Shown: positions 45,860-63,644 of the stretch, piece after piece | How positions within the stretch are numbered: position 1 is the stretch's first letter | Layout: every line of letters starts with the position of its first letter | From: a virus | Taxonomy: Duplodnaviria > Caudoviricetes | Length of the DNA stretch: 64,000 bases | Strand: one strand, 5' to 3' | IMG/VR virus record: IMGVR_UViG_3300033067_000207 | Span: 957-64,956 of that record | Program-made: the position numbers and the translations under genes | Notes under the pieces: model-generated | The model's input: the letters and a program-made list of their open reading frames with translations, nothing else | Databases searched by the model: none | Told to the model about the DNA's origin: nothing

Positions 45860-46474
45860 TTATGTTGTTTGACGTTGTATATTTTGCTTTACTAGACCTA
45901 TCTGATACCCAATACCCATCACGTTTAGGCTTTCAGCGTATATGTTAACAAAAGCATCAACCGCAATTTTTGGGCGGTGTAATATATCTCTCGGATTACC
46001 CCAGCCACAATAATCATCACAAACCATAACGCCGCCTACACCTAAAAGTTGCCAAGCCATGCACAGATCAGTCAAAACATCCGGTGCGGTGTGCGACCCG
46101 TCAACATAGATAAAGTCAAACTTGGAGCCGCGCCGGATATGTTCGGCGAGCCAAGCAACGGACGTGCCTTTTTGTTTTGTAACATTGTTACGCCCGGCGA
46201 TATTAGTCTGTAGCACATTCATATTGGCGTCAAACGTAGCCTCAACGCCATCTACGACACCCATTTCTTTATGTTCTTCGCCGCCTTCCCACGTATCAAT
46301 GCAACAGATTTCTCCACCGTCTTGAAGTAGGTTCTCGGAAAACCACACAGTAGACCGCCCTTCGTAGGAACCAATCTCCAGTATGCGTTTCGGTTGCCCG
46401 AAGTTTGTTTTAATTTGTTCCATGAACGGGATAGCCCGGTCAAACCAGTCTTGAGTCCAAGTGTAATTACTCAT
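45860..46474 (-). CDS. Class I SAM-dependent methyltransferase (Methyltransf_24-like)
   Basis: ILEIGSYEGRS, CIDTWEG, FDFIYVDGSH, GGVMVCDDY. Confidence 0.85.
   Translation of the reverse strand: MSNYTWTQDWFDRAIPFMEQIKTNFGQPKRILEIGSYEGRSTVWFSENLLQDGGEICCIDTWEGGEEHKEMGVVDGVEATFDANMNVLQTNIAGRNNVTKQKGTSVAWLAEHIRRGSKFDFIYVDGSHTAPDVLTDLCMAWQLLGVGGVMVCDDYCGWGNPRDILHRPKIAVDAFVNIYAESLNVMGIGYQIGLVKQNIQRQTT
46179..46191. promoter_or_regulatory. Palindrome GTAACA-N-TGTTAC, copy 1 (intragenic)
   Basis: GTAACATTGTTAC. Confidence 0.6.
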
Positions 46475-46475
46475 T

Positions 46476-47006
46476 CTATTTCTTACCCTTTTTAGTGTAC
46501 CGGTTGATAAAACCTTTTATATATTCTTGAGTGAAAGAGTTACTCGGTTCGTTTGGTGATTGAAAATAATTTCGCGACCCTACGTGGTAACCATATGGTT
46601 GGTTAGCTTGTTGTGCTAGTGCTTGTTGTGCTTGTTGTGCTTGTTGTGCTTGTTGTGCTTGTTGTGCTTGTTGTGCTTGTCGTGCTTGTCGTGCTAGTGA
46701 GTGTTGTGTCAACCTCGCTTTTTTGTGTGCTTCCGCCTCCGCCTCCGCCTTTGCGCGGCGTTCTGGACCGTCAGCAAGCTCTGACATTAGTACGCCCAAG
46801 AACCGGTCTTCGTTCAGCCTTGATGCCGCGTCTTCGAAAGCTTTTTTGTCGGTAGCACTTAAGAAGTAATAAAACTGTCTCCAAGCATCACACCACCGGC
46901 CACCGTCAATGTGTAAAGCACCATCTTGCCCGCGAGCAAAAGAAAACTCGCCCGGGTGTTCCTCCATCCTATCAATAAGAAACTGCACCCCTTTATTGAT
47001 ACTCAT
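46476..47006 (-). CDS. Hypothetical protein with AQQ repeats
   Basis: ARQARQ(AQQ)5. Confidence 0.65.
   Translation of the reverse strand: MSINKGVQFLIDRMEEHPGEFSFARGQDGALHIDGGRWCDAWRQFYYFLSATDKKAFEDAASRLNEDRFLGVLMSELADGPERRAKAEAEAEAHKKARLTQHSLARQARQAQQAQQAQQAQQAQQAQQALAQQANQPYGYHVGSRNYFQSPNEPSNSFTQEYIKGFINRYTKKGKK
46609..46696 (-). repeat. 9-bp tandem repeat (GCACAACAA)n, coding
   Basis: Directly visible in the sequence. Confidence 0.9.
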
Positions 47007-47287
47007 TGTGTGGCCTCTTTATAAGTAGCCTCAAACAGCTTGTGCGAATATTTGGTCAGGCTGCCGTCTTGCTTCAGGACAACGTAGTCACTTGGGTTAA
47101 GGCGGATTGTGTTGTCGTCTTTTTTAAATTCTGCAAACAAGAAGCCGTCTGGGTTCTTCAAAAATTGCACCGTGCCGCCAGACAACCAAGGGGGAGGACT
47201 GACAAGCCACCAATGATCTTTTTCCCACTTAGCACGAAACCGCCAAGCAGACACAACCTCTTGCGTGTCCATATCTTTGAAAAACAT
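47003..47287 (-). CDS. Hypothetical protein
   Basis: Ends LNPSDYVVLKQDGSLTKYSHKLFEATY. Confidence 0.6.
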   Translation of the reverse strand: MFFKDMDTQEVVSAWRFRAKWEKDHWWLVSPPPWLSGGTVQFLKNPDGFLFAEFKKDDNTIRLNPSDYVVLKQDGSLTKYSHKLFEATYKEATQ

Positions 47288-49099
47288 TTATCCTCCGTAA
47301 GTATAACCTGTCTCGCTCTCACAGGATAGAGGCAAATCCAACCCCCACGCTGGGCGCATTTTCATGCAGGCTTCAATGTATTTTACAGCTTCTTTTTCTT
47401 CGTCTTCTTTACATAATGCCACAACAGAGTCGTGCACCGTTAACACGACCCGGTATCGCTTTGCAATCTCTAACATTTGGTCCGTCACAGCGATCCGCGC
47501 AAGGGCCTGACAAATATTTTCTGTAAGGCCACCACCCCAGATAGACTTAGGAAACGTAGTGCGCCCTTTGCGGGAGTGATACACAAACCCGTCAGAAGTC
47601 TTATGGAGGTTCGGGTACTTCAACCGCATACCGTTGGGCAGCATGATACCTTCTTCACCGATTACTTTAATAACCCCACCGGGACCAAACTCGGCATATT
47701 GACCTTTAATTATTGTTTCTAGCATACGGTCACACTGTTTCCAGAACATCGGGATTTTGTCGTAAGCTGTTCTGTAGGCGTTAATAATGCGCTGCGCTTC
47801 GTCGTCGCTCAGCACAACTTTTTCTTTCTGAACTTTCAAGTGCGCTTGTAGCTTGCGCCACCCGGTGCCGTATCCACTACCGAGTGTAACTGTTTTTGAG
47901 AGGAAGCGCCGGTCGCTGTCGATTTCTTCAACGGGAACGTTGTATATCTTAGTGCCAGTTAATTTGTAGACATCTTCCCCCCGCGCGAACGCGTCTACTA
48001 AATCTTGTTGCCCCGCTACCCACGCCAGCATACGCGCTTCAATAGACGAAGAGTCACAGTTAATAATCTTGTACCCGTTTGGTGCGCGTATAGATTTCTT
48101 CAGGTTAGACTTGCGTGGGAGGTTCTGTAGGTTGATCCCGTCTTGGGCACTATACCGCCCAGTATGTGCACCGTAATAGCGCAAGGGGACCGGCAGGGTT
48201 CCGCGCCCAGAGATACCAATAAAAGCCTCTGTGCGGGTCTCTTCCAAAGTCGATTTGTTGCCGATACGCGCCGAAACAAGCGCCTGCACCGCAGGGTTTT
48301 CGTGTTCTTTTAGCTCTAGGAACTCTTCGTCTGATTTGGCGAACGCGTAAGTTTCTTTGCCTGTGGTCTTGCTAACTTTTGTGGGGGGCTCAACGCCGTT
48401 CGCGCGTAGTAGTTCGGCAAACTTTGCGTTACTCATCAAGTCCGCGCGCTCAACAAGCGCAGACATCAACAGGTTCATTTTCTTTTCTTGAACGTCCTTC
48501 AGGTGCGTCTCAAGCAGCGGCCTATCCAACTCCAGTACCGGTTCGGAAAACATACGAATAGTAAGGTCGATGAGCTTAAGCTCAGACAGTGGGAACTCGC
48601 CCAGCATATTTTTTACTAGCTTATAAGTAAGCTCTACGTCATTGACGCAGTACTCGGCATATTTGTTTAGCTCTTGCCGGGTGAAGTCCGCGCGCCGCTT
48701 ACCTAAAGCGTTTACAACCTCGTGGCCCTTTTCTCCCAGACCGAAGAACTTGGCGAGCGACGCCAACCCAACACCCACTTCGTTCCCATACAGGGCGCGG
48801 CCCATGGATAGTGTGTCAATGATCCGCTTCGGGCGGATATCAAAATGCCAGTTGAGAATAGCCGCGTCAAATTGCGCGTTATGAAATACCGCCGCCGACT
48901 CTTCCCAAGGAAATTTACGGAGCCACGTTTTTATTTCGTCGTGTGTACCAGAGAACCATTCTGTGGGTTTATCATCTTCTTTTACCGCCCACAGAATCAC
49001 TTCGAACTCGGGAGAACGTATATATTCCTCCACGGACATTTTCGATAAATTATACTGCTTATCATAAAATGTTTCGGCGTCCGCAACAAGGGTCTTCAT
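47288..49099 (-). CDS. polA: DNA polymerase, family A, with 3'-5' exonuclease
   Basis: DAET exonuclease motif, HNAQFD, motif A DSSSIEARM, motif B RFLSKTVTLGSGYG, motif C TVHDS. Confidence 0.92.
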   Translation of the reverse strand: MKTLVADAETFYDKQYNLSKMSVEEYIRSPEFEVILWAVKEDDKPTEWFSGTHDEIKTWLRKFPWEESAAVFHNAQFDAAILNWHFDIRPKRIIDTLSMGRALYGNEVGVGLASLAKFFGLGEKGHEVVNALGKRRADFTRQELNKYAEYCVNDVELTYKLVKNMLGEFPLSELKLIDLTIRMFSEPVLELDRPLLETHLKDVQEKKMNLLMSALVERADLMSNAKFAELLRANGVEPPTKVSKTTGKETYAFAKSDEEFLELKEHENPAVQALVSARIGNKSTLEETRTEAFIGISGRGTLPVPLRYYGAHTGRYSAQDGINLQNLPRKSNLKKSIRAPNGYKIINCDSSSIEARMLAWVAGQQDLVDAFARGEDVYKLTGTKIYNVPVEEIDSDRRFLSKTVTLGSGYGTGWRKLQAHLKVQKEKVVLSDDEAQRIINAYRTAYDKIPMFWKQCDRMLETIIKGQYAEFGPGGVIKVIGEEGIMLPNGMRLKYPNLHKTSDGFVYHSRKGRTTFPKSIWGGGLTENICQALARIAVTDQMLEIAKRYRVVLTVHDSVVALCKEDEEKEAVKYIEACMKMRPAWGLDLPLSCESETGYTYGG

Positions 49100-49163
49100 T
49101 TCTTAACTCCAGCACGAAGGGGTTTTCTCCACTCGCCCCCAGAAAAAGGATAAATCTTCTAGG

Positions 49164-49451
49164 CTATTCTTTTTTGGCATCTTTGCGTATCCAGATTTTT
49201 ACCGTGTTGTCGCTCTTATCATGCCAGCGCTTTTCAAATGTTACATACGCGGCCATCTCGTCTTCAGCTTCAACATGCGTGATCGCGGCTAGGTGCGACA
49301 GGCTTGAGTTATATGGTTCTACCTTAAGAATACTTGGGGTTTTTGAACCTTCATACCAAGCCCAGTGCACAGTATAGACTGGTTTTCCCGTAACATTGTT
49401 AATAAACCCCGGTATAAGTTCATTTAACATTTGTCTCTTACTAACGGCCAT
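49164..49451 (-). CDS. Small DEL-motif protein
   Basis: VEAEDEMAAYVTF; RBS AGGAG. Confidence 0.7.
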   Translation of the reverse strand: MAVSKRQMLNELIPGFINNVTGKPVYTVHWAWYEGSKTPSILKVEPYNSSLSHLAAITHVEAEDEMAAYVTFEKRWHDKSDNTVKIWIRKDAKKE

Positions 49452-50038: not shown

Positions 50039-50042
50039 TGGC

Positions 50043-50510: not shown

Positions 50511-50512
50511 TT

Positions 50513-50818
50513 CTATTTGTCCTTTAAAAGTTTAATAACGCCTTCTAGGTAACCAAGGTTACCCTCGTTTATTACGACAGCTACTCCCCCCGCCGTATTA
50601 ATTTTCTCTATGTGCATCTGCTGTAGTTCGGTAGGTTTATTCTTACCGGCCTTGCACTCAATAGCAAGGAACCGACCACTCACGCAACAAATAATATCTG
50701 GCACACCCTTGACCGAATACGCGCCGCCAATAGGACTGAAGTAATATATGTCTGATCCGTGGGATTTCAAGATTTTTACAATCTTATCTTTTACCGCGCG
50801 CTCCGGGGTCTTACTCAT
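50513..50818 (-). CDS. VRR-NUC domain nuclease
   Basis: KGVPDIICC..GRFLAIECKAGKNKPTELQ...I..AGG.A.V. Confidence 0.85.
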   Translation of the reverse strand: MSKTPERAVKDKIVKILKSHGSDIYYFSPIGGAYSVKGVPDIICCVSGRFLAIECKAGKNKPTELQQMHIEKINTAGGVAVVINEGNLGYLEGVIKLLKDK

Positions 50819-50850
50819 ATCTGTTCCTCGCTCGGTCAGATTTAAAGCAC

Positions 50851-50882
50851 AAAAAAGCCCCCGTGGCAAGTACCACGAGGGC
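50851..50882 (-). terminator. Rho-independent terminator
   Basis: GCCCTCGTGG-TACTTG-CCACGGGGGC followed by T6 on the - strand. Confidence 0.8.
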
Positions 50883-50890
50883 CAAGAAGT

Positions 50891-51190: not shown

Positions 51191-51487
51191 TTATTTCTTT
51201 TCCTCTCTCCTCTTAAAAATAACCCACGCCAGCCAACCGGGAAACACAACCATACAGCCGCCTAGCAACATGTAGAACATCCAAGATGGTAGGCGGATGC
51301 CGTCCAGTTCTTTTACGTATATCCCCAGCATAAACCCGGCGAAGAACAGGGCCACCGACCAGATTTTCCACGCGCTAAGAAAGTGCCTAGCCCAAACAAG
51401 TTCGTAGTAAAAAGTTTCTGATACACAGCGAACAGTAGATAAAACATGGTCGGACGCAATATTCTCAGGCTGCTTCTTGCCAAACAT
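51191..51487 (-). CDS. Small membrane protein
   Basis: Two hydrophobic segments. Confidence 0.6.
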   Translation of the reverse strand: MFGKKQPENIASDHVLSTVRCVSETFYYELVWARHFLSAWKIWSVALFFAGFMLGIYVKELDGIRLPSWMFYMLLGGCMVVFPGWLAWVIFKRREEKK

Positions 51488-52316
51488 TGTTTTTCTCCAT
51501 AATCAGAAAGAACTCGTTGGCGGCTACCCGAATACCGACATTTGGAATAAGCACATCGGTTTCTACCAGCTTAAGCAGCCCTAGCTTTTCTGCGATAACA
51601 ACGGGCAACTCGTGCGGCTTATATGTATACAGCGGGATATCTCCCGTGCCGCCAACATAGTACATACCAGAGTACTCATACACACCGAGATAGGACGAGG
51701 CCAACCGGTTTTGCTCTTCGTAGAACACTTTATCCACAAGCTTATCTTGCAGCGTATTCACAGTTGCTTCGTCAAAACCCAGTACCCGTAAGGCTTGCAT
51801 CTGCTCTTGGCTTAGCGGTCCCTTACGTTTTATTAGCACCGCAGTTAATTCGCGTACTGTGTTTTGGTAATCCGCGCTTGTCCTATAAGCCCGCGTACTA
51901 AACTCTCGCATACCGGACGCACTAATCCTCTCAAGATGTTCCTGCGGGGTAATAGCCTTCACATATTTCTTGAACGTGTCCAAGGCTACGTTGAGCTTGC
52001 TAGACCATTTGGTAGCCCCCCGCTCAATTACTTTATAGAGTGCGTCACACGTAATGTAGATGCCGGTGTTAGAGCCGCGAGCTTTGTGCCCTACTGTAGC
52101 GATCTTATGGCCCAGCGCATATACGTGAAACTCAGATAGTGTAGTCAGAGTATAAAAGTTATCAAACGACCGTTTGAACTCCCACGACGGGTTGCGCTTC
52201 GCGGCTTCGTATAAAAAGTCAGAGAGTAAATCTGGAACTTTGGTGCCCGGATTTTTGTCCGGGCAGGTTTTATACTCCACAAAGATGTTTGGCAGCCTAT
52301 GAATAATCTTGTTCAT
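51465..52316 (-). CDS. Hypothetical protein
   Basis: 283 aa; RBS AGGA preceded by the palindrome. Confidence 0.7.
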   Translation of the reverse strand: MNKIIHRLPNIFVEYKTCPDKNPGTKVPDLLSDFLYEAAKRNPSWEFKRSFDNFYTLTTLSEFHVYALGHKIATVGHKARGSNTGIYITCDALYKVIERGATKWSSKLNVALDTFKKYVKAITPQEHLERISASGMREFSTRAYRTSADYQNTVRELTAVLIKRKGPLSQEQMQALRVLGFDEATVNTLQDKLVDKVFYEEQNRLASSYLGVYEYSGMYYVGGTGDIPLYTYKPHELPVVIAEKLGLLKLVETDVLIPNVGIRVAANEFFLIMEKNNVWQEAA

Positions 52317-52328
52317 TTTAAATCCTGT

Positions 52329-52341
52329 GTAACATTGTTAC
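52329..52341. promoter_or_regulatory. Palindrome copy 2 (intergenic, at RBS)
   Basis: GTAACATTGTTAC. Confidence 0.75.
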
Positions 52342-52343
52342 GC

Positions 52344-53195
52344 TTACCAAGAATAGGCTTTTAGGACTTCATCAATCCGCTTCTTTACATCCGCGCGGGT
52401 GTCTGCGCTCTCTCTAATCTCCACAATGTCTACACCCAACAGGGCAGACTGAAGATCACGGCGCGCTTTCTCAAGCTCCGGGTCACGCGTTACATTTAGG
52501 TGCGTAAGCATAGTGCACAAGTCCTGCGCGTTGGAAATCAAGGTCTCGTGATAACGCTTCTTCTCGTCGTCGTTGGTGTCAGTCAACTTGGCGGAAATAT
52601 TCTGGAGCACTTTGTAAAGCCTATCCCACGGCTCACGCATTGCCTCCGCCAGTCGCGCATTCTGACTAGCTTCGTACTCCTGCTTAATTTCCTCCAGCGC
52701 TTGCGCCGGAATATCCAACCTGAAATCGCCGGACTCTGGCATTGGACTAAACACCAGCTTAAAGCTAAACTTCTTCCGGACTTCTTCGGCGTCTGGATAA
52801 TCCGTCTCATCGAACAGGTCACCGAGGTTAGCCTTGGCCTTTTCTACATGCTGCGGGTACTCGTCGATGAACTTATCAACCATACCGTCAAAGGTGGCCT
52901 TACGCACATCCGCTTCCTGCTTGTAATCAAAGAACAGGGACAGCGGGATAAGACGCGAACCGCGATCAGCCCACGGCAAGGTCTTAGTATTGTGCCACAT
53001 ACGTGTAGCTGCGGCGTAATCCGCAATGTCCTTTCGCGCAGATGTGCCCGCCATAAGATGCTTGGTAACTTTAGCGGCAGACCTTACGGCAGAGTTGCTA
53101 TGTGTAATCTCTTCCGTGCGTGTCTTATCCTGTATGGCTGCGGTCCACACGCCGATGTTGAGTTCGACCAACAATGCTGAACTTGAAATGCTCAT
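52344..53195 (-). CDS. DUF3150-like conserved phage protein
   Basis: ALLVELNIGVWTA...KTLPWADRGSRL...DETDYPDAEEVRKKF...MREPWDRLY. Confidence 0.55.
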   Translation of the reverse strand: MSISSSALLVELNIGVWTAAIQDKTRTEEITHSNSAVRSAAKVTKHLMAGTSARKDIADYAAATRMWHNTKTLPWADRGSRLIPLSLFFDYKQEADVRKATFDGMVDKFIDEYPQHVEKAKANLGDLFDETDYPDAEEVRKKFSFKLVFSPMPESGDFRLDIPAQALEEIKQEYEASQNARLAEAMREPWDRLYKVLQNISAKLTDTNDDEKKRYHETLISNAQDLCTMLTHLNVTRDPELEKARRDLQSALLGVDIVEIRESADTRADVKKRIDEVLKAYSW

Positions 53196-53555: not shown

Positions 53556-53740
53556 TATTTTTCTCTAGGCTCCAGAAAACCAAGAAGCTGGAATGTAACG
53601 CCAAAAAACACAAAGCCAAATACTGCGCCCCACTCCATAACGCTTTGCGCGTAGTTTGTGTCGAGGAGGCACAGATTAACTAGGGGCGCGACAAGCGCGC
53701 CCCCGGCCATTACATAACAAATCTTAGATACTTCGTTCAT
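53555..53740 (-). CDS. Small membrane protein
   Basis: Two hydrophobic segments. Confidence 0.55.
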   Translation of the reverse strand: MNEVSKICYVMAGGALVAPLVNLCLLDTNYAQSVMEWGAVFGFVFFGVTFQLLGFLEPREK

Positions 53741-54969
53741 TACTCAACCTCAACCTTGATCGTCTTACCGTTAGGCGACACAACGTCCGTGGTAATGCAC
53801 CACAACACAGGTGCGGGCCACTCGCTGCCCCAATCACCCACATACCCGTCCGTAAATTGCAGGATAGCTTGCGGGACAATCTTCTTCTCGTTAAGCAAAC
53901 GCATGAGACACGCGCCGTCCGTGCCGCCGCCGCCCTTAGGTTTAGTGTTGGCTACTAAGCTATCCATATCGGAAACTTCGTAGACTTCTTCAGACGCTAC
54001 AGAATGGTCCCAGTAATAGAGGCGGATGCGCTCGGGGCGAACAGCTTCACACACAGCCTTGACCTCAGATAGAAACGCATTGAGTTCCCGGTTACTGATG
54101 GAACCAGAAGTATCCACGCCAACAATAATCTCCCCTACACGCTCACCGATAAGAGTAGGCAAATAGATATCATTGCCGACGAACCTGCGGTTGACGCGAC
54201 GCCAAGAGGACGCGTCTTTAGCTGCACACGTAGTAGTTACAAACTCTCTTAGGAGTTCTTTCCAGTCATGTTTGGGCTCCAAGAGATCGCCGAGTTCCCG
54301 CGACATGCCTCCCGCGCCTGTTCCATTGAGTCGTTGGTGGGCGATCTGCCCTGTACGAAGAGCCGTGTCGATTTCACGTTCGATCTCTTTCTGTTCCGCT
54401 TCCGTGAGTTCTTGCGCGCCTTCCCAGTCATGCTCATCGAAGCCCTTAAGGTTAGAGCCAAAGCCGCCAGAAGAATTACCGTCGCCGTCACCCTTCTTCC
54501 CCTTACCGGACTGTTGCTGCATCTCTTTCTTGAGCGCATCAAACACTTGCTTGGTGTTCATACCACGATATTTCTCGTCAACCAAGCCGATCTTCTCGCC
54601 GTTAAGCGTGGGAAACTCGATGACGTGTCCTTCCGGGTCCATATCTTTGAGTTCTAAGTTAATCACAAAGTCAGCGGCGGCGTTGGTGAGCATGGGGTTT
54701 TCTTCGAACAGCCGACGCCAGATGAACAAATGCCGATAAGCCTTGTGCAAGTTCTCGTGGAGGACAACAAACGCGAGCTGTTTATCGTTTAGCTTAGCAA
54801 TGAAGTCTTCGCCGTAAAACTCGTCGCGTCCGTTGGTGGCGGCAGTGGGGATATCTTTGGAAACATATGTTTTGCCAACCATAAGGATACCAGACCACAA
54901 CGCAAACTTGGGGTTGCGCATCAGGGAAATCTTGGCGCGGGTCAAACGCTTCTCAGGAGTAATGCTCAT
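53740..54969 (-). CDS. Putative metallopeptidase + VWA-like protein (DUF2201 type)
   Basis: PTAATNG, LHENLH (HExxH), MIDAS VDTSGS, GGGGTD, FTDGY. Confidence 0.85.
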   Translation of the reverse strand: MSITPEKRLTRAKISLMRNPKFALWSGILMVGKTYVSKDIPTAATNGRDEFYGEDFIAKLNDKQLAFVVLHENLHKAYRHLFIWRRLFEENPMLTNAAADFVINLELKDMDPEGHVIEFPTLNGEKIGLVDEKYRGMNTKQVFDALKKEMQQQSGKGKKGDGDGNSSGGFGSNLKGFDEHDWEGAQELTEAEQKEIEREIDTALRTGQIAHQRLNGTGAGGMSRELGDLLEPKHDWKELLREFVTTTCAAKDASSWRRVNRRFVGNDIYLPTLIGERVGEIIVGVDTSGSISNRELNAFLSEVKAVCEAVRPERIRLYYWDHSVASEEVYEVSDMDSLVANTKPKGGGGTDGACLMRLLNEKKIVPQAILQFTDGYVGDWGSEWPAPVLWCITTDVVSPNGKTIKVEVE

Positions 54970-55385
54970 TTGCGTACCTTTCTGACTTGTTTGAACAGGG
55001 TGGAATACCCTTTGGATGTAACATTGTTACACTTAACTGTTAGGGTCTTCTGTTTGGCGTCGCGTAACTTATATAGGTCGTGCTTAAGCTTAGGTATATT
55101 CTCTTTGCCACAGTACATAATCATGGCGTTTTTAAGCGCATCTAATTCGTCGATGGCATAGAGTTGTTTATTCACAAACCCCTCTTCTGAAAACGGCTCA
55201 CATGTATTCGGGTCAATAATCCAGTATGCATACCGAACGCGCAGCGTGACTAAAAAACATTTGTTGGGGGTGGGTCTCGGGAAACGAGGTTGCGTTAATT
55301 TTATGATGCCGCCAGAAACTTCACCAACCTTAAACACTGACACGTCTGGGGGATATTCTTTTTCTAACTCCTCTAGTGTTTTCAT
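54966..55385 (-). CDS. DEL-motif protein
   Basis: LYAIDELDALKNA. Confidence 0.65.
   Translation of the reverse strand: MKTLEELEKEYPPDVSVFKVGEVSGGIIKLTQPRFPRPTPNKCFLVTLRVRYAYWIIDPNTCEPFSEEGFVNKQLYAIDELDALKNAMIMYCGKENIPKLKHDLYKLRDAKQKTLTVKCNNVTSKGYSTLFKQVRKVRK
55017..55031. promoter_or_regulatory. Palindrome copy 3 (intragenic, about 50 bp upstream of the VWA gene)
   Basis: TGTAACATTGTTACA. Confidence 0.7.
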
Positions 55386-55739: not shown

Positions 55740-55780
55740 GTTGCCTCTGAAATAGGGGAGAGGAATTACCCTCCCCCAGT

Positions 55781-55793
55781 GTAACAGTGTTAC
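55781..55793. promoter_or_regulatory. Palindrome copy 4 (intergenic)
   Basis: GTAACAGTGTTAC. Confidence 0.75.
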
Positions 55794-55813: not shown

Positions 55814-56887
55814 CTATAAAATATCGTGGTTACGGGCCACCCAATTCACAAAACTCTTCGAAGAAGTAGCAATGGCTTGCTTGCCAGAGTTCTTCATAAC
55901 TTGAATGCCGAACGCAGCTTGCCACTCAGGTTGCATACGCTGGATGTATTCCATGAAGGCTTCCATGTTAGTCTTCTCGATCTTAGCGATAGCGCCGTAC
56001 ACCAACACGGCGCACGCACCGGCACTCTCAGGAACCGGGGTCTTCTTAGGTTCCTTAATGATGGCTTCCCACGAAGGAAGCTGGTCTTGGTAGTCAACGA
56101 AGGCTTGCATATCCCGCGCAGCGGCTTCGCCCACAGCGCCAGACAGTGAGGCAATCAGAGTATCAGTATCAATCTTATCGCGAGCCTTAACAACGTTACT
56201 GGCGATCTCAAGAGAACGCGGAGACACGAAGGCTTGTTGTACGCGACGCGGATTGAAGTTGTACGGGTTGTTGTTGTCCTTAGCGTTCGGATCGTACTCG
56301 TCCAAACAATGCGGGAACTGCTTAACCCATGCCATGATAACAGGATCAATGTTGTTATCAACGGCCCAGTCTAACCACTCATCGGCCAGCGGCGCGCGGA
56401 TATTAAGGGTGATGATGCGGTTAAGTGTGTGCGCTTTGAGAGAGTCGCCGACACCATCCGAAGTCTTGTTGCCGGTCAAGAAGATGATTGATCCAGCCGG
56501 AATGGGCAGGTCACCGAGACGCGGGTTCTTAACTTCCAAAAGCGGGTGCAGCATGTTCTTGATTGGGTCAGCGCCCTTGGAATACTCATCGAGCATGATG
56601 ATAACTGGCTTGCCGCTATCCAGCTTGAAGCGAGAGTTAGGATAATACGAAGTAACCTTACGGGTGTGGTCAACCACAGGCATGGCGATATCGCCAAGGT
56701 CCATGTTTGGTACGTCAATGTACGCGGTTTCATATGAAGGAAACATTTCCTTAAGCGCGCCAATCAGGCTGCTCTTGCCAATGCCTGGAGATCCCCTAAG
56801 AAAGTAACGGTTCATTGGGGTAGCGGCGATGATGGCCGCAGCTTGCTTCAAGGAAACTTCTTTGCCAAACGAAAGGGCCTTAGACAT
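55814..56887 (-). CDS. MoxR/AAA_5-type ATPase
   Basis: Walker A GSPGIGKS, Walker B IMLDE, LTGN...TLNR, SPRS. Confidence 0.85.
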   Translation of the reverse strand: MSKALSFGKEVSLKQAAAIIAATPMNRYFLRGSPGIGKSSLIGALKEMFPSYETAYIDVPNMDLGDIAMPVVDHTRKVTSYYPNSRFKLDSGKPVIIMLDEYSKGADPIKNMLHPLLEVKNPRLGDLPIPAGSIIFLTGNKTSDGVGDSLKAHTLNRIITLNIRAPLADEWLDWAVDNNIDPVIMAWVKQFPHCLDEYDPNAKDNNNPYNFNPRRVQQAFVSPRSLEIASNVVKARDKIDTDTLIASLSGAVGEAAARDMQAFVDYQDQLPSWEAIIKEPKKTPVPESAGACAVLVYGAIAKIEKTNMEAFMEYIQRMQPEWQAAFGIQVMKNSGKQAIATSSKSFVNWVARNHDIL

Positions 56888-56911: not shown

Positions 56912-56926
56912 TGTAACATTGTTACA
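56912..56926. promoter_or_regulatory. Palindrome copy 5 (upstream of the AAA gene)
   Basis: TGTAACATTGTTACA. Confidence 0.75.
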
Positions 56927-56962: not shown

Positions 56963-57046
56963 CTATCCGCCATCTCGTTCGCGCTTTTCTTTAGGTAGCG
57001 TTACAAACACAAACCAAAGCCAAACTAGCAGAAACAAAACGGGCAT
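56963..57046 (-). CDS. 27-aa membrane peptide (not in the ORF track)
   Basis: AGGAG RBS; MPVLFLLVWLWFVFVTLPKEKRERDGG. Confidence 0.45.
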   Translation of the reverse strand: MPVLFLLVWLWFVFVTLPKEKRERDGG

Positions 57047-57057: not shown

Positions 57058-57072
57058 TGTAACATTGTTACA
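57058..57072. promoter_or_regulatory. Palindrome copy 6 (abuts RBS, downstream of promoter)
   Basis: TGTAACATTGTTACA. Confidence 0.75.
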
Positions 57073-57118: not shown

Positions 57119-57147
57119 ACTATATACTATAGTTATCCCTAAGTCAA
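57119..57147 (-). promoter_or_regulatory. Sigma70-type promoter upstream of the AAA/VWA operon
   Basis: TTGACT-N17-TATAGT on the - strand. Confidence 0.7.
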
Positions 57148-58488: not shown

Positions 58489-58690
58489 TCTCCATGCCTT
58501 CCATCAGCTTACGGAATTTCACCATCACGTCAAGCTCATCTTGTCCGTGCATAGGTAGGGTACGCGGCGTGTTTTCCTCAGAGAGCTTACAATGAACCAT
58601 AAACAAATGCCGAACACCTTCCATCCCTAGTTCATATAACCCATCATCCTCTATCCGTAACAATGTTACACTCAATTTTTTCTTTTTCAT
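58466..58690 (-). CDS. Small DEL-motif protein
   Basis: MHGQDELDVMVKF. Confidence 0.65.
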   Translation of the reverse strand: MKKKKLSVTLLRIEDDGLYELGMEGVRHLFMVHCKLSEENTPRTLPMHGQDELDVMVKFRKLMEGMEIEVVNPD

Positions 58691-58922
58691 TGCGCGCCAT
58701 CCTGTATGCTTCGACTTCGCACGCCGCTGTAACTTCGAACGTTTTTTCCTCTGAGAAATTTTCGTCGTCATAGGTTATTTTTATCCTAACAACATACTTG
58801 TTTGTGCGCGCACCGGTCTGAGAAAAGTATTCATTTTTCCCGAGCTGCCTTCGCCGCACACCTCCGCCTTTGTTCAGGCTTTTGAACTTGTTGTTTATGT
58901 TTAGTATCTCAACCGTAACCAT
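58644..58922 (-). CDS. Small protein, DEL-motif variant
   Basis: FEVTAACEVEAYRMA; RBS GGAGG. Confidence 0.65.
   Translation of the reverse strand: MVTVEILNINNKFKSLNKGGGVRRRQLGKNEYFSQTGARTNKYVVRIKITYDDENFSEEKTFEVTAACEVEAYRMARNEKEKIECNIVTDRG
58657..58669. promoter_or_regulatory. Palindrome copy 7 (in a gene overlap)
   Basis: GTAACAATGTTAC. Confidence 0.65.
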
Positions 58923-59416: not shown

Positions 59417-59426
59417 CGTCAGTCTC

Positions 59427-59868: not shown

Positions 59869-60160
59869 TGTACGCCTCCAATAATTTTAGCGTGGGCAGC
59901 AAAGCCGATAACTCGTCCGGGTATACGGCAGCAGAAAAAGGTTTATTGACGCCGTATAGCTGAAAATATAATTTAATCTTTGCGGACAGCGGGCCTATGC
60001 GGTGAAAAAACGCAACCGGTTGGTACTCTAAAGACTGTTCGTCCAGCAGTTTTCGCAACTCGTCGCATATAATACTCGCTTCGCGCCCGGTTGTTGTTGG
60101 TTTTAGCACCGCCACGATTTGACTTCCGTCCTGTATTATACGGTCTAGTTCTAGTTTCAT
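59852..60160 (-). CDS. Small DEL-motif protein (PDEL subtype)
   Basis: AVYPDELSALLPT. Confidence 0.7.
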   Translation of the reverse strand: MKLELDRIIQDGSQIVAVLKPTTTGREASIICDELRKLLDEQSLEYQPVAFFHRIGPLSAKIKLYFQLYGVNKPFSAAVYPDELSALLPTLKLLEAYNAAQD

Positions 60161-60384
60161 AGTACATGCCCCGCATTAGCTAAGAAATCCATAACTCTTT
60201 TCATTGCGTCAAGCTCGTCAAGCGCCATAAAGTTTGGTCTAAACAGCCATGCGCCGTGCCACGTAAATATTTTTCTAAGTGCGGTGGCTTCTTCTTTGTT
60301 CTCAGCCTGTATCCAAACTGTATACCACGCCATTTTTCTATTTATGCCCGCGTGCGCCAGCCATTCAATCTTGATTATTCGCAT
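60157..60384 (-). CDS. Small DEL-motif protein
   Basis: FMALDELDAMKRV. Confidence 0.7.
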   Translation of the reverse strand: MRIIKIEWLAHAGINRKMAWYTVWIQAENKEEATALRKIFTWHGAWLFRPNFMALDELDAMKRVMDFLANAGHVL

Positions 60385-60625
60385 TCCATTCCTCAAGTAT
60401 GGGTTGCAGGTGCGCGAAAACCGAAAGCTCGTCTGGAAACTTATCTACATCAAAGTTAATTCTTTGGGTTCGAACACCGTAAGTGTCGGCGTCCGACATT
60501 CTGCATAACTGGTTCAAAGTGCTCCTGTCGCGGTCGTCATTACCAGACAACCCGGAAATATAGGCGTGGAAATCAAAGTGAAACGAATTAACACCGCGCT
60601 CAATCCGTTCTATTTCTAGTTTCAT
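60365..60625 (-). CDS. Small DEL-motif protein (PDEL subtype)
   Basis: DKFPDELSVFAHL. Confidence 0.7.
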   Translation of the reverse strand: MKLEIERIERGVNSFHFDFHAYISGLSGNDDRDRSTLNQLCRMSDADTYGVRTQRINFDVDKFPDELSVFAHLQPILEEWNANNQD

Positions 60626-61029
60626 GCGATCTTGTATCCTCTTGCGTTTAACCACCGGACAGCCTGTGCGTACGCATCTAGCTCATCAACGGCTTCTTTT
60701 ATTTCTATGTGGGGGTGCCTTAATATATTATACCCACCGCTCGTAGCTGGGTCAGCCACAACATAGAAATTCCCGGTATAAAACCCCCTCCAAGGGTTAG
60801 GAATAGAAAATATATGTAGCTTTACTTTCGCTATATACTCGTCTCTCGCGTATCCCTTTACTACCTCAATGATATGTACCTTATTTGGAAAAGTGTATTT
60901 CTTAAGTAAGTATAAAGGCCCAAGGGCATAAAGCAAAAATAATACACAGCCAAAGACAACAGAAAAACATAAAAGCGCGCCAACAGGACCAAACGCCTGT
61001 ACCACCACTTTAAAGGTTACCCATATCAT
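60622..61029 (-). CDS. DEL-motif protein with N-terminal TM segment
   Basis: Hydrophobic N-terminus; KEAVDELDAYAQA. Confidence 0.7.
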   Translation of the reverse strand: MIWVTFKVVVQAFGPVGALLCFSVVFGCVLFLLYALGPLYLLKKYTFPNKVHIIEVVKGYARDEYIAKVKLHIFSIPNPWRGFYTGNFYVVADPATSGGYNILRHPHIEIKEAVDELDAYAQAVRWLNARGYKIA

Positions 61030-61035
61030 TCTGCA

Positions 61036-61344
61036 TTACACCTTTATATCTACCAGAGTACCCAATACTTTCTGCGCTGCGTTGTACACAGTCGTGAAGG
61101 CCGCAAGCTCATCTCTGGCGCTGACCTCAAACCGCTTCCTGCGCTGGCATTTAACGATGCGAATATCTTCGTGAACTATTGCCGTCACTATCCTGTGCCG
61201 CCGATCTACCCACGCTGCTCTTTGGGCGTGGTCCGGGCAGTGCCCGTCTGGGTAGCACACCGCGTATTCGTCTTCCCACGTGATCCATACGAAATACATG
61301 GTGGCGTCGTTACGAAACCTTTGGACTCTTCTTAGACTTAACAT
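61036..61344 (-). CDS. Small DEL-motif protein
   Basis: VSARDELAAFTTV. Confidence 0.7.
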   Translation of the reverse strand: MLSLRRVQRFRNDATMYFVWITWEDEYAVCYPDGHCPDHAQRAAWVDRRHRIVTAIVHEDIRIVKCQRRKRFEVSARDELAAFTTVYNAAQKVLGTLVDIKV

Positions 61345-61627
61345 CTTTTTGTTCCTCGTAATTTTTTATGGTTTGGAGTGCGGCGGAGAAAACAGTTAGC
61401 TCATCTGGGAAAGGCTTGATGAACCTACCTATTCTCCCTAAACAAAGTCGAAACTCGTTATCGGCTGTAGGTGAAGCATCTATATAAAACTCGTAGCCTG
61501 CCGGGGTTATCATCAAATCGCGCCAGTAATATAGCTCTTTAATATCGGCGGGCATCAGCACATCAAACATAGCGTAAATTTCTTCACCGTAACCAGATAT
61601 TGGGTTTTCTTCCAGCAGGCGTAACAC
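61310..61627 (-). CDS. Small DEL-motif protein (PDEL subtype)
   Basis: KPFPDELTVFSAA. Confidence 0.7.
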   Translation of the reverse strand: MLRLLEENPISGYGEEIYAMFDVLMPADIKELYYWRDLMITPAGYEFYIDASPTADNEFRLCLGRIGRFIKPFPDELTVFSAALQTIKNYEEQKDVKSKKSPKVS

Positions 61628-61633
61628 TGTTAC
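61621..61633. promoter_or_regulatory. Palindrome copy 8 (covers a GTG start codon)
   Basis: GTAACACTGTTAC. Confidence 0.7.
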
Positions 61634-61645
61634 TCCACCTCCATT

Positions 61646-61888
61646 TTATATATCCTCCAGTATCTTCATCACGTAGGTCATTACTGCAAGCTCGTCTGCG
61701 TGGAACATAGCGAGGTGCGTATGGGATATAGAAACAAAATATGGGTCTACGTTTCTGTGTTTCTCCTGTAGTTTTTCCACGTCCTCCCACGCTAGTATCC
61801 CATCGAACCGCACCAAATACAAGTTATACCCACTAGTAGATGTCAACGTGCCGCTGGGACACGTTATTTTACGTATCTTCACCATCAC
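61646..61888 (-). CDS. Small DEL-motif protein
   Basis: MFHADELAVMTYV. Confidence 0.7.
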   Translation of the reverse strand: MMVKIRKITCPSGTLTSTSGYNLYLVRFDGILAWEDVEKLQEKHRNVDPYFVSISHTHLAMFHADELAVMTYVMKILEDI

Positions 61889-62160
61889 CGGCTCCGTAAC
61901 AGCACGCGCTCTTCGATCAGATGTTGCAGTTCGTTATAAATTTGCTCAACCAAGAGGACGCGCTTGCCCTTAAACTTATCCAGAGCTTCGGCGTATGATA
62001 GTTCCGCTTGCCTCTCATCCCTGCCGCGTGAGTATTCCACATTCTTGTACCCATCCCACACGCCCACCAGATAGACTTTATAGGTTTTCATTTCCGGCTT
62101 TTGTTTGTTCATTTGATTTCTCCTCAACGCTAGGTGTTCCATTTTTACTGTTATATCCAT
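61885..62160 (-). CDS. Hypothetical protein without the DEL motif
   Basis: ORF in the operon; true start may be internal. Confidence 0.55.
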   Translation of the reverse strand: MDITVKMEHLALRRNQMNKQKPEMKTYKVYLVGVWDGYKNVEYSRGRDERQAELSYAEALDKFKGKRVLLVEQIYNELQHLIEERVLLRSR

Positions 62161-62210
62161 GAGGCCACCTCTTGTTTATTTCATCCAGTATGGGTTGCGC
62201 CAGCACGTAT

Positions 62211-62573
62211 TCATTCTATACCTCCGTTTGGTTGCACAGGAACACTGTCGCCACAGCTAGCAGGCGCAGCAGGTATAATACCATTTGTAATTTCCTCCCA
62301 GTTACCCAGTATGCGTTGTGCTAGCACAAAGGCTGCAAGCTCGTCGGGGATAGAGTCCGCCCTGAAACAGATCATATCAGGAAACAGCAGCACGGGGAGT
62401 ATATTGTGTTTACGCACGTAGCTCTCCAGCCCTAAGAAGCTAGTAGCTTTGTTCGTTATGCTTTCTGTGAGGGCGGCGGATAAGCTAGGCTCAAGAAGCC
62501 TGCTGTCTAGTCTCACATCAATCCATTTCTCGTTAAATGGGTCGATATTCACTTTCTCTATGTTTGGTTTCAT
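62211..62573 (-). CDS. Small DEL-motif protein (PDEL subtype)
   Basis: DSIPDELAAFVLA. Confidence 0.7.
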   Translation of the reverse strand: MKPNIEKVNIDPFNEKWIDVRLDSRLLEPSLSAALTESITNKATSFLGLESYVRKHNILPVLLFPDMICFRADSIPDELAAFVLAQRILGNWEEITNGIIPAAPASCGDSVPVQPNGGIE

Positions 62574-62823
62574 CCACGTGCCTTTCTATGTATCCTATAG
62601 CTATGCTAAGCGCTTTCAGCTCGTCCACTGTTGCAATCTGGAATGTACATCTTCCGGGGCTGAAGAACTCGTCATGCGGTTTTAGTTCCCGCCAGTCTGT
62701 ATCGGCTACATTTTCTGGAAACTTCTCATAGAAGGTTCTTTCTTTTCCTTTAAGGGCGACAACTATGTTGTATACCCACCGCCCCTCATCGCCGCCGATA
62801 TTTTCTATATTAATTATCTCCAT
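62533..62823 (-). CDS. Small DEL-motif protein
   Basis: IATVDELKALSIA. Confidence 0.7.
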   Translation of the reverse strand: MEIINIENIGGDEGRWVYNIVVALKGKERTFYEKFPENVADTDWRELKPHDEFFSPGRCTFQIATVDELKALSIAIGYIERHVDETKHRESEYRPI

Positions 62824-63082
62824 AGTCTTCTTCCTCTGTGTCCAGCATCCAGAAATCATCGGACAAAACCCGAGCGGAAGAAATAAACTCCACCACCTTA
62901 CCCTTTTCTGTGAACCAGAAAGTATCCCCGAAGACTGGGGAGATAACTATGTTGTAGTATGAGTTGGTTTTATTCCGGCGTAACAGTGTTACAGCTAATT
63001 TCTTAGCTCTTGTCTCGCCTTTGATGTGGGCTTGTAAGTATTTTGTTGGGGATAGTTGGATTGAGAGTTTATAGAGTTTCAT
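62810..63082 (-). CDS. Hypothetical protein without the DEL motif
   Basis: 90 aa, overlapping its neighbours. Confidence 0.6.
   Translation of the reverse strand: MKLYKLSIQLSPTKYLQAHIKGETRAKKLAVTLLRRNKTNSYYNIVISPVFGDTFWFTEKGKVVEFISSARVLSDDFWMLDTEEEDYGDN
62980..62992. promoter_or_regulatory. Palindrome copy 9 (intragenic)
   Basis: GTAACAGTGTTAC. Confidence 0.65.
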
Positions 63083-63299
63083 TTGTTTGCTCCTGTGCCA
63101 CTATGAAAATTTTTAACGCATCCAGCTCATCTTTGGCGTTGTATATCCTTACGGCGTAGGGGCCGTATGTTGTAGAGTATCCTTTCTTTGCGATGGCGTA
63201 ACAAATTTTAGAGCTGTTTTTTATTTTCCCTCCGTCTTCGCGCCGCACACAGTATGAAATGCCGTCCCATACTACCCTAAGCGCCTCCATTTTTTGCAC
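63069..63299 (-). CDS. Small DEL-motif protein
   Basis: YNAKDELDALKIF. Confidence 0.7.
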   Translation of the reverse strand: MQKMEALRVVWDGISYCVRREDGGKIKNSSKICYAIAKKGYSTTYGPYAVRIYNAKDELDALKIFIVAQEQTNETL

Positions 63300-63594
63300 C
63301 TGATGTTATGTACTCGCATACAACCAAGGCTTTCTTAAACGCATCCAGCTCATCCTCGCCTGATACACACAGCACGGGTTCACCACATATATTGTATTCG
63401 TTTTCCGCCCCGTACGCCTCCGTGTAGTATGCGTTTGATCCGCACACACCGTCACCAAGTTTATACCACGGATAATATCCTGTAGGCACCTCTGCGGTTT
63501 TTTTCAGAAACCGCGTTTCTTTTTTTGTCGCCTTGGTGACTACAACCATAAATGACCGTCCGGCCCTGCGTGTACTAACTCTCTTTGGTAACAT
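63277..63594 (-). CDS. Small DEL-motif protein
   Basis: VSGEDELDAFKKA. Confidence 0.7.
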   Translation of the reverse strand: MLPKRVSTRRAGRSFMVVVTKATKKETRFLKKTAEVPTGYYPWYKLGDGVCGSNAYYTEAYGAENEYNICGEPVLCVSGEDELDAFKKALVVCEYITSGAKNGGA

Positions 63595-63631
63595 TTAACA
63601 TACTCTCTATTAGTGGCCTTACTTTTTAGGC

Positions 63632-63644
63632 GTAACATTGTTAC
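63632..63644. promoter_or_regulatory. Palindrome copy 10 (intergenic)
   Basis: GTAACATTGTTAC. Confidence 0.75.

What the first reader, a model, noticed from the sequence alone, without database searches (positions are those of the whole stretch)
46179..63644. Palindrome GTAACA-N-TGTTAC repeated ten times, only in the early arm and often at translation starts
Seen: exact copies of the 13-bp core start at 46179, 52329, 55018, 55781, 56913, 57059, 58657, 61621, 62980 and 63632, with a one-mismatch copy at 49390. I noticed none in the first 46 kb (manual scan). About 0.004 copies are expected by chance in 64 kb (12 fixed bases, uniform composition). Many copies extend to AGTGTAACA on one side. 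Several abut an RBS or start codon (52329, 57059, 61621) or lie within about 25-50 bp of one (55018, 56913, 63632), while others are maintained inside coding sequence. Inferred: operators for a dimeric regulator that coordinately shuts off the early array, or sites for a DNA-organising, injection or recombination protein. No obvious dedicated repressor lies in the window.
Basis: partly seen in the sequence, partly recalled or inferred. Interest (0 to 1): 0.8.

Follow-up and report, generated by a model that had tools for sequence, protein, structure and literature searches.

The report
Operator-like palindrome array in phage early arm
Ten exact copies of a 13-base palindrome mark the first-expressed genes of this uncultured 65-kb phage; over 70 related phages carry matching arrays, so these are most likely docking sites for a two-fold symmetric DNA-binding regulator of early genes, and that regulator is still unidentified in this phage.

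Summary
GTAACA-N-TGTTAC occurs 10 times (0.01 expected). All copies lie at 46.2-63.6 kb, in the minus-strand early/replication arm of a complete 64,956-bp virus record.

The motif is a family trait. Of 80 relatives found through the neighbouring ATPase gene, 72 carry TAACA-N(0-2)-TGTTA arrays of 5-25 copies. The outer bases differ by lineage. In six long genomes the array starts at the strand switch and fills the first 9-12 kb of the arm.

The family consensus is a symmetric 17-bp palindrome. The core never varies and shows no G-U-type variants. One copy is written into ATPase codons in 58 of 81 loci. Another sits upstream of the first sigma70-type early promoter, outside its transcript. Two near-identical phages carry different palindromes at the same positions.

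My best reading (0.5) is operator or roadblock sites of a dimeric DNA-binding protein. The closest known cases are mycobacteriophage stoperators and the Cluster O 17-bp repeats. A Cro-like HTH protein with an invariant recognition helix is the best candidate reader in relatives, but this phage lacks it. The hairpin, recombination-linker and host-factor readings remain open.

This scan has noted similar arrays in other phages before.

The parts
63632..63644 (.). Palindrome copy 1 (minus-strand reading GTAACAATGTTAC). It is intergenic, 56 nt after the stop of the first early ORF (63701-63985) and 37 nt before the ATG at 63594.
62980..62992 (.). Palindrome copy 2. It lies inside ORF 62810-63082, whose status as a gene is uncertain. 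A terminator-like hairpin (62925-62941) follows about 39 nt downstream.
61621..61633 (.). Palindrome copy 3. It starts 12 nt after the stop of ORF 61646-61888. Its central GTG (61627) is a possible start codon preceded by GGAGG.
58657..58669 (.). Palindrome copy 4. It lies in overlapping small ORFs, near the 3' end of 58644-58922.
57119..57147 (-). Near-consensus sigma70-type promoter TTGACT-N17-TATAGT, upstream of the ATPase operon.
   Evidence: sequence read; the same promoter type lies upstream of the ATPase gene in relatives
57059..57071 (.). Palindrome copy 5. It lies in the leader, 47 nt downstream of the -10 hexamer, and abuts the AGGAG site of a 27-aa mini-ORF.
56963..57046 (-). 27-aa hydrophobic/basic mini-ORF between palindrome copies 5 and 6.
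   Evidence: read
56913..56925 (.). Palindrome copy 6. It is 25 nt upstream of the ATPase ATG (56887) and 146 bp from copy 5.
55814..56887 (-). N4 gp24-like (MoxR-type) AAA ATPase. This gene was the anchor used to find relatives.
56187..56199 (.). Decayed two-mismatch remnant at ATPase codons S-N-V-V-K. At this position 58 of 81 relatives keep an exact palindrome core.
55781..55793 (.). Palindrome copy 7. It starts 20 nt after the ATPase stop and is followed at once by a GC-rich hairpin (55755-55777) and TATTT.
55018..55030 (.). Palindrome copy 8. It lies in the 3' end of ORF 54966-55385, 48 nt before the ATG of the DUF2201 metallopeptidase/VWA gene (53740-54969).
52329..52341 (.). Palindrome copy 9. 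It fills the 27-nt gap between the two 283-aa genes (52344-53195 and 51465-52316).
49390..49402 (.). One-mismatch copy (TTAACAATGTTAC on the minus strand) upstream of the PolA gene (47288-49099).
46179..46191 (.). Palindrome copy 10, the last of the array. It lies inside the methyltransferase-like ORF 45860-46474.

Best explanation
The palindromes are double-stranded DNA binding sites for a two-fold symmetric, sequence-specific protein, most likely phage-encoded. That protein acts on the part of the genome that host RNA polymerase transcribes first. Shown here: the site is a symmetric palindrome with an invariant core. It is confined to the promoter-proximal 10-18 kb of the early arm. It is kept both between and inside genes. 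It flanks the first early promoter in relatives. It changes by lineage. Inferred: once the protein is made, it occupies all copies. It then represses the early promoter, perhaps by looping between the sites at about -60 and +55, and blocks elongating polymerase at the internal copies, switching off or timing the early genes. In most relatives the best candidate reader is a roughly 80-aa Cro/XRE-type HTH protein encoded late in the same arm. In this phage no reader could be identified.
For: (1) Across 737 unique sites the conservation is symmetric out to +/-8 (A-C-C-TAACA-W-TGTTA-G-G-T). No other element lies at a fixed distance within 60 nt.
(2) Among 111 one-mismatch variants the TAAC/GTTA core never changes and there are no G-U-type changes. 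Only the outermost base (C>A 49, G>T 36, not compensated) and the innermost base vary, and they do so symmetrically.
(3) The flank positions on the two sides vary independently of each other.
(4) In at least 10 loci one copy is centred 54-73 bp (mostly about 60) upstream of an extended -10 sigma70-type promoter in front of the first early gene, outside that transcript. A second copy often lies at about +55, 112-120 bp away.
(5) At ATPase codons S-N-I-V-[RKS], 58 of 81 loci keep TCT AAC ATT GTT A(G/A)x exactly, while loci without the site use free synonymous codons.
(6) As RNA, the copies in this window are weak hairpins of -2.7 to -6.1 kcal/mol.
(7) Motif type follows clades on the ATPase tree. 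Two phages with 80-99% identical proteins carry CTAACA-N-TGTTAG and CCTGATAC-GTATCAGG respectively at the same intergenic positions.
(8) All copies lie in the first 9-12 kb of the arm in six long relatives.
(9) An HTH_3 protein is present in six long genomes that carry the C- or A-type array. Its recognition helix SRQT[VI]YNWF is almost invariant while the rest of the protein is about 50% identical. The two lineages with a variant site (A-type; 2-nt spacer) have K in place of R.
Against: No binding has been shown. Centre spacings of 0, 1 and 2 nt coexist within single genomes, which is unusual for a rigid dimer and easy for a hairpin loop. The cultured Rhizobium phage relative has arms separated by a variable centre of 5-6 nt. 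Many copies sit 10-50 nt upstream of ribosome-binding sites in transcribed leaders, which would also suit an RNA role. This phage, which has the array, lacks the HTH_3 candidate and also lacks the conserved first early gene family. The search that retrieved further HTH homologues required the recognition-helix motif, so its invariance is partly built in. The R/K link rests on two lineages.
Confidence: 0.5

Rival explanations
1. The element acts as a hairpin in the early mRNA, or in single-stranded DNA. A sequence-specific RNA-binding protein or endoribonuclease recognises it and processes, stabilises or translationally controls each early cistron.
For: All copies lie in one transcribed arm. 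Many lie 10-50 nt upstream of ribosome-binding sites, within CA-rich junction units that are conserved among sites. Loop-like centres of 0-2 nt, or 5-6 nt in the Rhizobium phage, vary within a genome. The extended consensus of relatives folds at -10.5 kcal/mol, the X-type at -6.8 and the Rhizobium type at -8.1.
Against: A conserved copy lies upstream of the first early promoter, outside its transcript. There are no G-U-type variants, and outer mismatches are not compensated. There is no strand asymmetry beyond base composition. The copies in this window are weak hairpins. Copies inside the ATPase and VWA genes would cut or block essential mRNAs. There is no Rfam match.
Confidence: 0.2
2. The palindromes are shared linker sequences. 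They promote exchange of early-gene cassettes between co-infecting relatives and are kept uniform by gene conversion, like the PeSL units of T4-type phages.
For: The small early ORFs have no homologues in 80 relatives, while the palindromes persist. Homology breakpoints are about two-fold enriched within 10-30 bp of sites. In one relative a 144-aa gene sits exactly where a sister phage has a palindrome. The whole junction unit of about 45 nt is similar among sites.
Against: The enrichment is weak and is expected for sites at gene boundaries. Copies maintained inside conserved genes, and a copy at a roughly fixed position upstream of a promoter, are not cassette boundaries. No recombinase was found. 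There is no promoter at a fixed distance, unlike PeSLs.
Confidence: 0.12
3. The sites bind a host protein, such as a repressor or a nucleoid protein, which the phage recruits or soaks up.
For: No reader was found in this phage. The two phages with the G-type motif (this one and L064) are not sister lineages. Earlier notes of this scan read similar GTTAG/CTAAC arrays in other phages as host metal-repressor sites. A plasmid MazE-like antitoxin binds TAACATTGTTA in gel shifts (PMC11826091).
Against: In 401 sampled alphaproteobacterial genomes the motif occurs in 20, against about 45 for the reversed control, so no regulon is visible. Two phages with 80-99% identical proteins use very different palindromes, which is hard to reconcile with a conserved host factor. 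The host is unknown, so this test is weak.
Confidence: 0.1
4. The palindromes are hairpin promoters for an unrecognised phage RNA polymerase, as in phage N4.
For: The 7-bp stem and 3-nt loop match the geometry described for N4 virion-polymerase promoters (from my own knowledge). The phage shares an N4 gp24-like ATPase and has a 2044-aa virion protein.
Against: No T7-like polymerase was detected, and the giant protein has no match to solved structures; both results are weak negatives. The sites are symmetric and lack orientation. At 52329 and 57059 they lie too close to the ribosome-binding site to leave a leader. There are 10-25 copies, some inside genes. Good sigma70-type promoters are present.
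Confidence: 0.04

Closest known systems
Stoperators and operators of Cluster A mycobacteriophages (L5 gp71 and relatives; PMC6550527)
   Same: There are many copies of one short site dispersed through transcribed regions. Most copies are not at promoters and some flank the early promoter. The site motif differs between related phages in step with lineage. The proposed action, blocking elongation, is the same.
   Different: Stoperators are asymmetric 13-bp sites oriented with transcription, lie on both genome arms, and belong to temperate phages with a known immunity repressor. Here the site is palindromic and confined to the early arm. No lysogeny genes were seen, and the binding protein is not identified in this phage.
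17-bp repeat of Cluster O mycobacteriophages, TGTTCGG-NNN-CCGAACA (PMC4351075)
   Same: The architecture matches the family consensus here: 7-bp inverted repeats separated by 3 bp, invariant arms, a variable A/T-rich centre, no meaningful orientation, and copies both between ORFs and inside them. Its function is unknown.
   Different: The sequence is different. More than 30 copies are spread over the whole genome rather than one arm. The phages infect Mycobacterium and are siphoviruses with prolate heads.
PeSL (promoter-early stem-loop) cassettes of T4-type phages (from my own knowledge; cited in earlier notes as PMC2839356, not read here)
   Same: A short conserved element punctuates hypervariable early ORFan genes.
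   Different: A PeSL couples an early promoter to a stem-loop at a fixed distance. Here there is no element at a fixed distance from the palindrome.
GalR operators OE and OI of the E. coli gal operon (from my own knowledge)
   Same: Two copies of a palindromic operator flank a promoter at about -60 and +55, roughly 113-120 bp apart.
   Different: In gal only two sites serve one operon. Here the same site also recurs 10-25 times along the arm.
MtvA (MazE-like antitoxin) operator TAACATTGTTA on plasmid pPAD8 (PMC11826091)
   Same: The 11-bp core sequence is identical and was shown by gel shift to bind a dimeric protein.
   Different: That is a single autoregulatory site on a Pseudomonas plasmid. 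No MazE/AbrB-type domain was found in this phage.

Membership tests
Cluster A stoperators | Many copies of one short site dispersed in transcribed regions, mostly not at promoters | tested here: met
   10 copies in this window and 5-25 per relative at about one per 0.5-1 kb. No promoter lies at a fixed distance.
Cluster A stoperators | [quoted passage not shown] | tested here: not met
   The site is a palindrome. The flanks and the centre show no strand bias beyond base composition.
Cluster A stoperators | A cognate repressor gene in the same genome | tested here: inconclusive
   An HTH_3 candidate is present in six long relatives. None was found in this phage.
Cluster A stoperators | Site motif varies with phage lineage | tested here: met
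   C, A, G, X and 2-nt-spacer types follow clades. An in-place swap is seen between L039 and L026.
Cluster O 17-bp repeats | 7-bp inverted repeats separated by 3 bp, with invariant arms and a variable centre | tested here: met
   The family consensus is ACCTAAC-AWT-GTTAGGT. In this window the conserved part is 6+1+6.
Cluster O 17-bp repeats | Copies spread over the whole genome | tested here: not met
   Copies are confined to the first 9-18 kb of the early arm.
N4-type hairpin promoters | A virion or phage RNA polymerase gene | tested here: inconclusive
   PF00940 gave no match, but the control genomes were also silent. The 2044-aa protein has no PDB sequence match.
N4-type hairpin promoters | A few oriented copies upstream of early operons, leaving a leader with a ribosome-binding site | tested here: not met
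   There are 10-25 symmetric copies, some inside genes. Sites 57059 and 52329 lie 12 nt before the ATG.
Integron attC sites | Outer boxes RYYYAAC and GTTRRRY | tested here: inconclusive
   The C-type consensus ACCTAAC...GTTAGGT fits. This window's copies (GTGTAAC) do not.
Integron attC sites | A second (L) box, extrahelical bases and a length of about 57-141 nt, plus an integrase | tested here: not met
   The element is 13-17 bp with a 0-2 nt centre. No recombinase appeared among the proteins scanned.
PeSL cassettes | An early promoter at a fixed distance from the stem-loop | tested here: not met
   There is no information content outside +/-8 in 737 aligned sites.
ParB/KorB-type site arrays | A ParB N-terminal domain protein in the genome | tested here: not met
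   PF02195 gave no match in this phage or in four complete relatives, while the controls were positive.
Intrinsic terminators | A GC-rich stem followed by a U tract | tested here: not met
   There is no T enrichment after the site. Only occasional copies are followed by T runs.

The most novel reading that the evidence does not exclude
Virulent phages of this large, mostly freshwater group carry an immunity-like switch. One small dimeric protein, Cro-like in most members, silences the whole host-transcribed early arm through 10-25 roadblock and looping sites. Its specificity exists in several discrete types that can be swapped in place across all sites. Related phages would then be sorted into groups that can or cannot shut down, or recombine with, each other during co-infection.
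Probability: 0.15. Interest if true: 0.75.

Novelty: new variant of a known kind. Interest (0 to 1): 0.55.

Why it matters
Dispersed operator-like repeats are known from a few cultured mycobacteriophages. In one of those cases (Cluster O) their function is still unknown. Here the same architecture appears in a large uncultured group: at least 262 contigs were found through the ATPase gene. Three features make it testable. One copy is held in place by codon choice inside a conserved gene. One copy sits at a roughly conserved position upstream of the first early promoter. Two nearly identical phages differ in the palindrome at the same sites. A cultured Rhizobium phage, RHph_TM3_14A, has an analogous array and could serve as a bench model. 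If the sites do switch off early genes, this would show how virulent phages that lack their own polymerase time their early genes. It would also give portable operator-regulator pairs.

Tried and rejected
1. Fixed-distance promoter or other element next to the palindrome: none within 60 nt.
2. Base-pair covariation and G-U tolerance as a test for a stem: neither was found.
3. Strand bias of the centre and flanks: none beyond base composition.
4. RHH-like 71-aa protein as reader: rejected, because its sequence is near-identical in L039 (C-type) and L029 (X-type).
5. HTH-DUF3310 protein: it is a T7 gp1.7-like nucleotide kinase and is absent from several phages that carry the motif.
6. First early gene family (about 170 aa, all helical, AlphaFold pLDDT 84): no fold or family match. 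It is absent from the X-type and motif-free clades, but also from this phage and from L062.
7. The 283-aa DUF3150-like protein: no PDB sequence or fold match.
8. A protein unusually similar between the two G-type phages: none found.
9. T7-like polymerase, MazE/AbrB and ParB domains in this phage: none found.
10. Host regulon in 401 Alphaproteobacteria: none seen.
11. Exact-motif scan of IMG/VR for more G-type phages: almost only single chance hits.
12. Rfam: no match.
13. Sequencing-run search and protein atlas: the tools did not complete.
14. Near-identical DNA in cultured phages: none.


Full report
OBSERVATION. Shuffles give 0.01 expected. Allowing mismatches adds 49390 (one mismatch), 32247 (one mismatch, inside the 2044-aa gene, probably chance) and 56187 (two mismatches). 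The window is bases 957-64956 of a 64,956-bp IMG/VR virus record that CheckV rates as complete. The whole record has the same ten copies.

Genes at 1-34 kb are on the plus strand and are structural; they include a 2044-aa virion protein. Genes at 34.4-64 kb are on the minus strand. That arm holds about 25 small ORFs, an N4 gp24-like AAA ATPase (55814-56887), a DUF2201 metallopeptidase/VWA protein, two 283-aa proteins, an Hjc-like nuclease, PolA, a helicase and a primase. The nearest cultured phages are Pseudomonas KPP25/phiR18 and Rhizobium RHph_TM3_14A, with PolA about 37% identical. All ten copies lie in the promoter-proximal 18 kb of the minus-strand arm.

CONTEXT IN THE WINDOW. The following is read on the minus strand.
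- Six copies are intergenic or at gene junctions: 63632, 61621, 57059, 56913, 55781 and 52329.
- One copy (55018) lies in the last 50 nt of an ORF.
- Three copies lie inside open frames: 62980, 58657 and 46179.
- A near-consensus promoter (TTGACT-N17-TATAGT, 57147-57119) precedes copy 57059, then a 27-aa mini-ORF, then copy 56913, then the ATPase gene.
- As RNA the ten copies would be weak hairpins of -2.7 to -6.1 kcal/mol.

THE MOTIF IS A FAMILY TRAIT. The ATPase protein retrieved 262 related IMG/VR stretches, and the best 80 were fetched with up to 10 kb of flank on each side. None of the small early ORFs of the window has a homologue in these loci. Only the ATPase, the VWA protein, the 283-aa proteins, the Hjc-like nuclease and PolA are shared. 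Even so, 72 of the 80 loci carry an over-represented palindrome of the same design.
- Most have CTAACA-N-TGTTAG, with up to 22 exact 13-mers in 12 kb.
- One clade has ATAACA-N-TGTTAT.
- Several lineages have a 2-nt centre.
- L064 has the window's own GTAACA-N-TGTTAC, with 9 copies.
- L026 and L029 have CCTGATAC-GTATCAGG.
- One clade of five loci, plus L017 and L072, has no such palindrome.

In five complete genomes every copy lies in one 9-12 kb segment. In six long genomes that segment starts exactly at the strand switch, that is, at the head of the early arm. Spacing is more even than random placement would give (mean coefficient of variation 0.57 against 0.90), with a mode of 400-600 bp. 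The cultured Rhizobium phage has an analogous array in the same arm, 16 copies of (G)TTACC-N5/6-GGTAA(C). KPP25 has none.

ANATOMY OF THE SITE. Aligning 737 unique sites gives the symmetric consensus A-C-C-TAACA-W-TGTTA-G-G-T. There is no information beyond +/-8, so there is no -35/-10 or other element at a fixed distance. Among 111 one-mismatch variants inside the arrays, the TAAC/GTTA core never changes. Only the outermost base (C>A 49 times, its mirror image G>T 36 times) and the innermost A/T vary. No variant is of the G-U type, and the outer changes are not compensated on the other arm. The next flank position on the left and right varies independently. The A-over-T preference at the centre (2:1 in intergenic sites) is weaker than the A-over-T bias of the surrounding sense strand. 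These features point to base-specific, two-fold symmetric recognition rather than to a structure that only needs to pair. On the other side, centres of 0, 1 and 2 nt coexist in single genomes (L062, L024, L049). That is easier to explain as a loop than as a rigid dimer.

SELECTION ON THE DNA ITSELF. About half of the sites lie in long open frames. At one conserved ATPase peptide, S-N-I-V-[R/K/S], 58 of 81 loci spell TCT AAC ATT GTT A(G/A)x exactly. The last residue is chosen among R (AGR), S (AGY) and K (AAG). The 23 loci without the site use free synonymous codons. The window has the decayed remnant at 56187.

A SITE OUTSIDE THE TRANSCRIPT. In front of the first early gene of relatives there is an extended -10 promoter (TTGCTT or TGGCTT, N18, TGnTATAAT). 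One palindrome is centred 54-73 bp (mostly about 60) upstream of the -10 in at least ten distinct loci. In several loci a second palindrome is centred 52-59 bp downstream (75 bp in L080), just before the ribosome-binding site. The two are 112-120 bp apart in most of these loci and 148 bp in L080. The upstream copy is not part of the early transcript. This is the strongest single argument for a DNA-level role. The layout recalls the two GalR operators that flank the gal promoters (from my own knowledge). A similar sigma70-type promoter lies 40-56 nt upstream of the palindrome that precedes the ATPase gene, in the window and in relatives. The distance from promoter to site is therefore variable.

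SWITCHING IN PLACE. L039 (C-type) and L026 (X-type) share most genes at 80-99% amino-acid identity. At three homologous junctions, upstream of the ATPase gene, upstream of the VWA gene and after the RHH-like gene, the C-type palindrome is replaced by the X-type palindrome while the flanks stay nearly identical. The ATPase-internal C-type site is erased in L026 by about eight substitutions in 15 nt. One C-type site inside the VWA gene persists. At a fourth junction L026 has a 144-aa gene where L039 has the palindrome. On the ATPase tree the variant types mostly follow clades, but the two G-type phages are not sisters and the 2-nt spacer arose several times. Homology breakpoints are only about two-fold enriched near sites.

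WHO READS IT. No T7-like polymerase, MazE/AbrB domain or ParB domain is detectable in this phage. The GcrA-like gene (43723-44178) is not shared with relatives. Several candidates were examined.
- An RHH-like 71-aa protein is excluded as the specificity determinant, because its sequence is near-identical in a C-type and an X-type phage.
- The first early gene family (about 170 aa, helical, no fold match) is present in 42 motif-bearing loci or genomes and absent from the X-type and motif-free clades. It is also absent from this phage and from L062.
- A Cro/XRE-type HTH_3 protein of about 80 aa is encoded late in the same arm in six long C- or A-type genomes. Its recognition helix SRQT[VI]YNWF is almost invariant while the rest of the protein is about 50% identical. 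The two genomes with variant sites (A-type L060/G007; 2-nt spacer L073) have SKQT. This is the best candidate in relatives, but it has three weaknesses. The wider search for homologues required that helix. The R/K link rests on two lineages. This phage has no homologue.

A host reader was tested weakly. In 401 alphaproteobacterial genomes the window's motif is no more frequent than its reversed control. The class was chosen because the phage GcrA-like protein's only relative found in the genome collection is in an alphaproteobacterial MAG. A paper shows that a MazE-like antitoxin binds TAACATTGTTA (PMC11826091). That shows a dimeric protein can read this core. It does not show that one does so here.

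VERDICT. The best-supported mechanism (about 0.5) is an array of operator or roadblock sites for a dimeric DNA-binding protein that controls the host-transcribed early arm. The closest known cases are the stoperators of Cluster A mycobacteriophages (PMC6550527), from which this differs in symmetry, distribution and lifestyle. Closest in architecture are the 17-bp 7-3-7 repeats of Cluster O mycobacteriophages, whose function is unknown (PMC4351075). A sequence-specific hairpin signal (0.2), a recombination linker (0.12), a host factor (0.1) and a hairpin promoter (0.04) are not excluded. Earlier notes of this scan describe comparable GTTAG/CTAAC arrays in other phages, with differing readings. 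I treat those notes as leads only.

Noticed in passing
window 38583-39032 (minus): A 149-aa protein with an HNH/AP2-type endonuclease motif ([23 protein letters not shown]) and a C-terminal HTH. It looks like a homing endonuclease and is not shared with relatives.
   Followed up: partly
window 43723-44178 (minus): GcrA-like protein (Pfam E 6e-16). It is absent from six related long genomes. Its only relative found in the genome collection is in an alphaproteobacterial MAG (47% identity), a weak hint at the host.
   Followed up: partly
window 63701-63985, 63277-63594, 63069-63299, 39081-39314 (minus): Small early proteins share a K/E-DELDA-[MFL]-K motif, so they form a paralogous family of small ORFs. 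None has a homologue in 80 relatives.
   Followed up: no
window 50513-50869 (minus): Conserved Hjc-like (PD-(D/E)XK) nuclease of 118 aa. A strong terminator-like hairpin (50856-50883) overlaps its longest start, so the ATG at 50818 may be the true start.
   Followed up: no
window 56963-57046 (minus): A 27-aa hydrophobic then basic mini-ORF with a strong ribosome-binding site, sitting between two palindromes in the ATPase leader.
   Followed up: no
L085 (Rhizobium phage RHph_TM3_14A, MN988472) 3536-20163: Sixteen copies of (G)TTACC-N5/6-GGTAA(C) at gene junctions of the early arm. The 3' arm often doubles as a stop codon plus a Shine-Dalgarno-like AGG/GAGG just before the next ATG. The half-site GTAAC is the same as in the window but in the opposite relative orientation.
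   Followed up: partly
L060 about 9880-9990 (upstream of its ATPase gene): At least four tandem copies of a roughly 21-bp unit (cctagttggcagcaagacgtt) replace the usual promoter-palindrome leader.
   Followed up: no
L092 8860-8900, L091 13850-13890 (minus): A G-rich tract (runs of GGGG) lies just upstream of the first palindrome at the head of the early arm in several relatives.
   Followed up: no
L026 12695-13129: A 144-aa gene, followed by a GC-rich hairpin, sits exactly where sister phage L039 has a palindrome.
   Followed up: partly
window 32247-32259: A one-mismatch copy (GTAACTATGTTAC) inside the 2044-aa virion protein gene on the other arm. It is probably chance.
   Followed up: no
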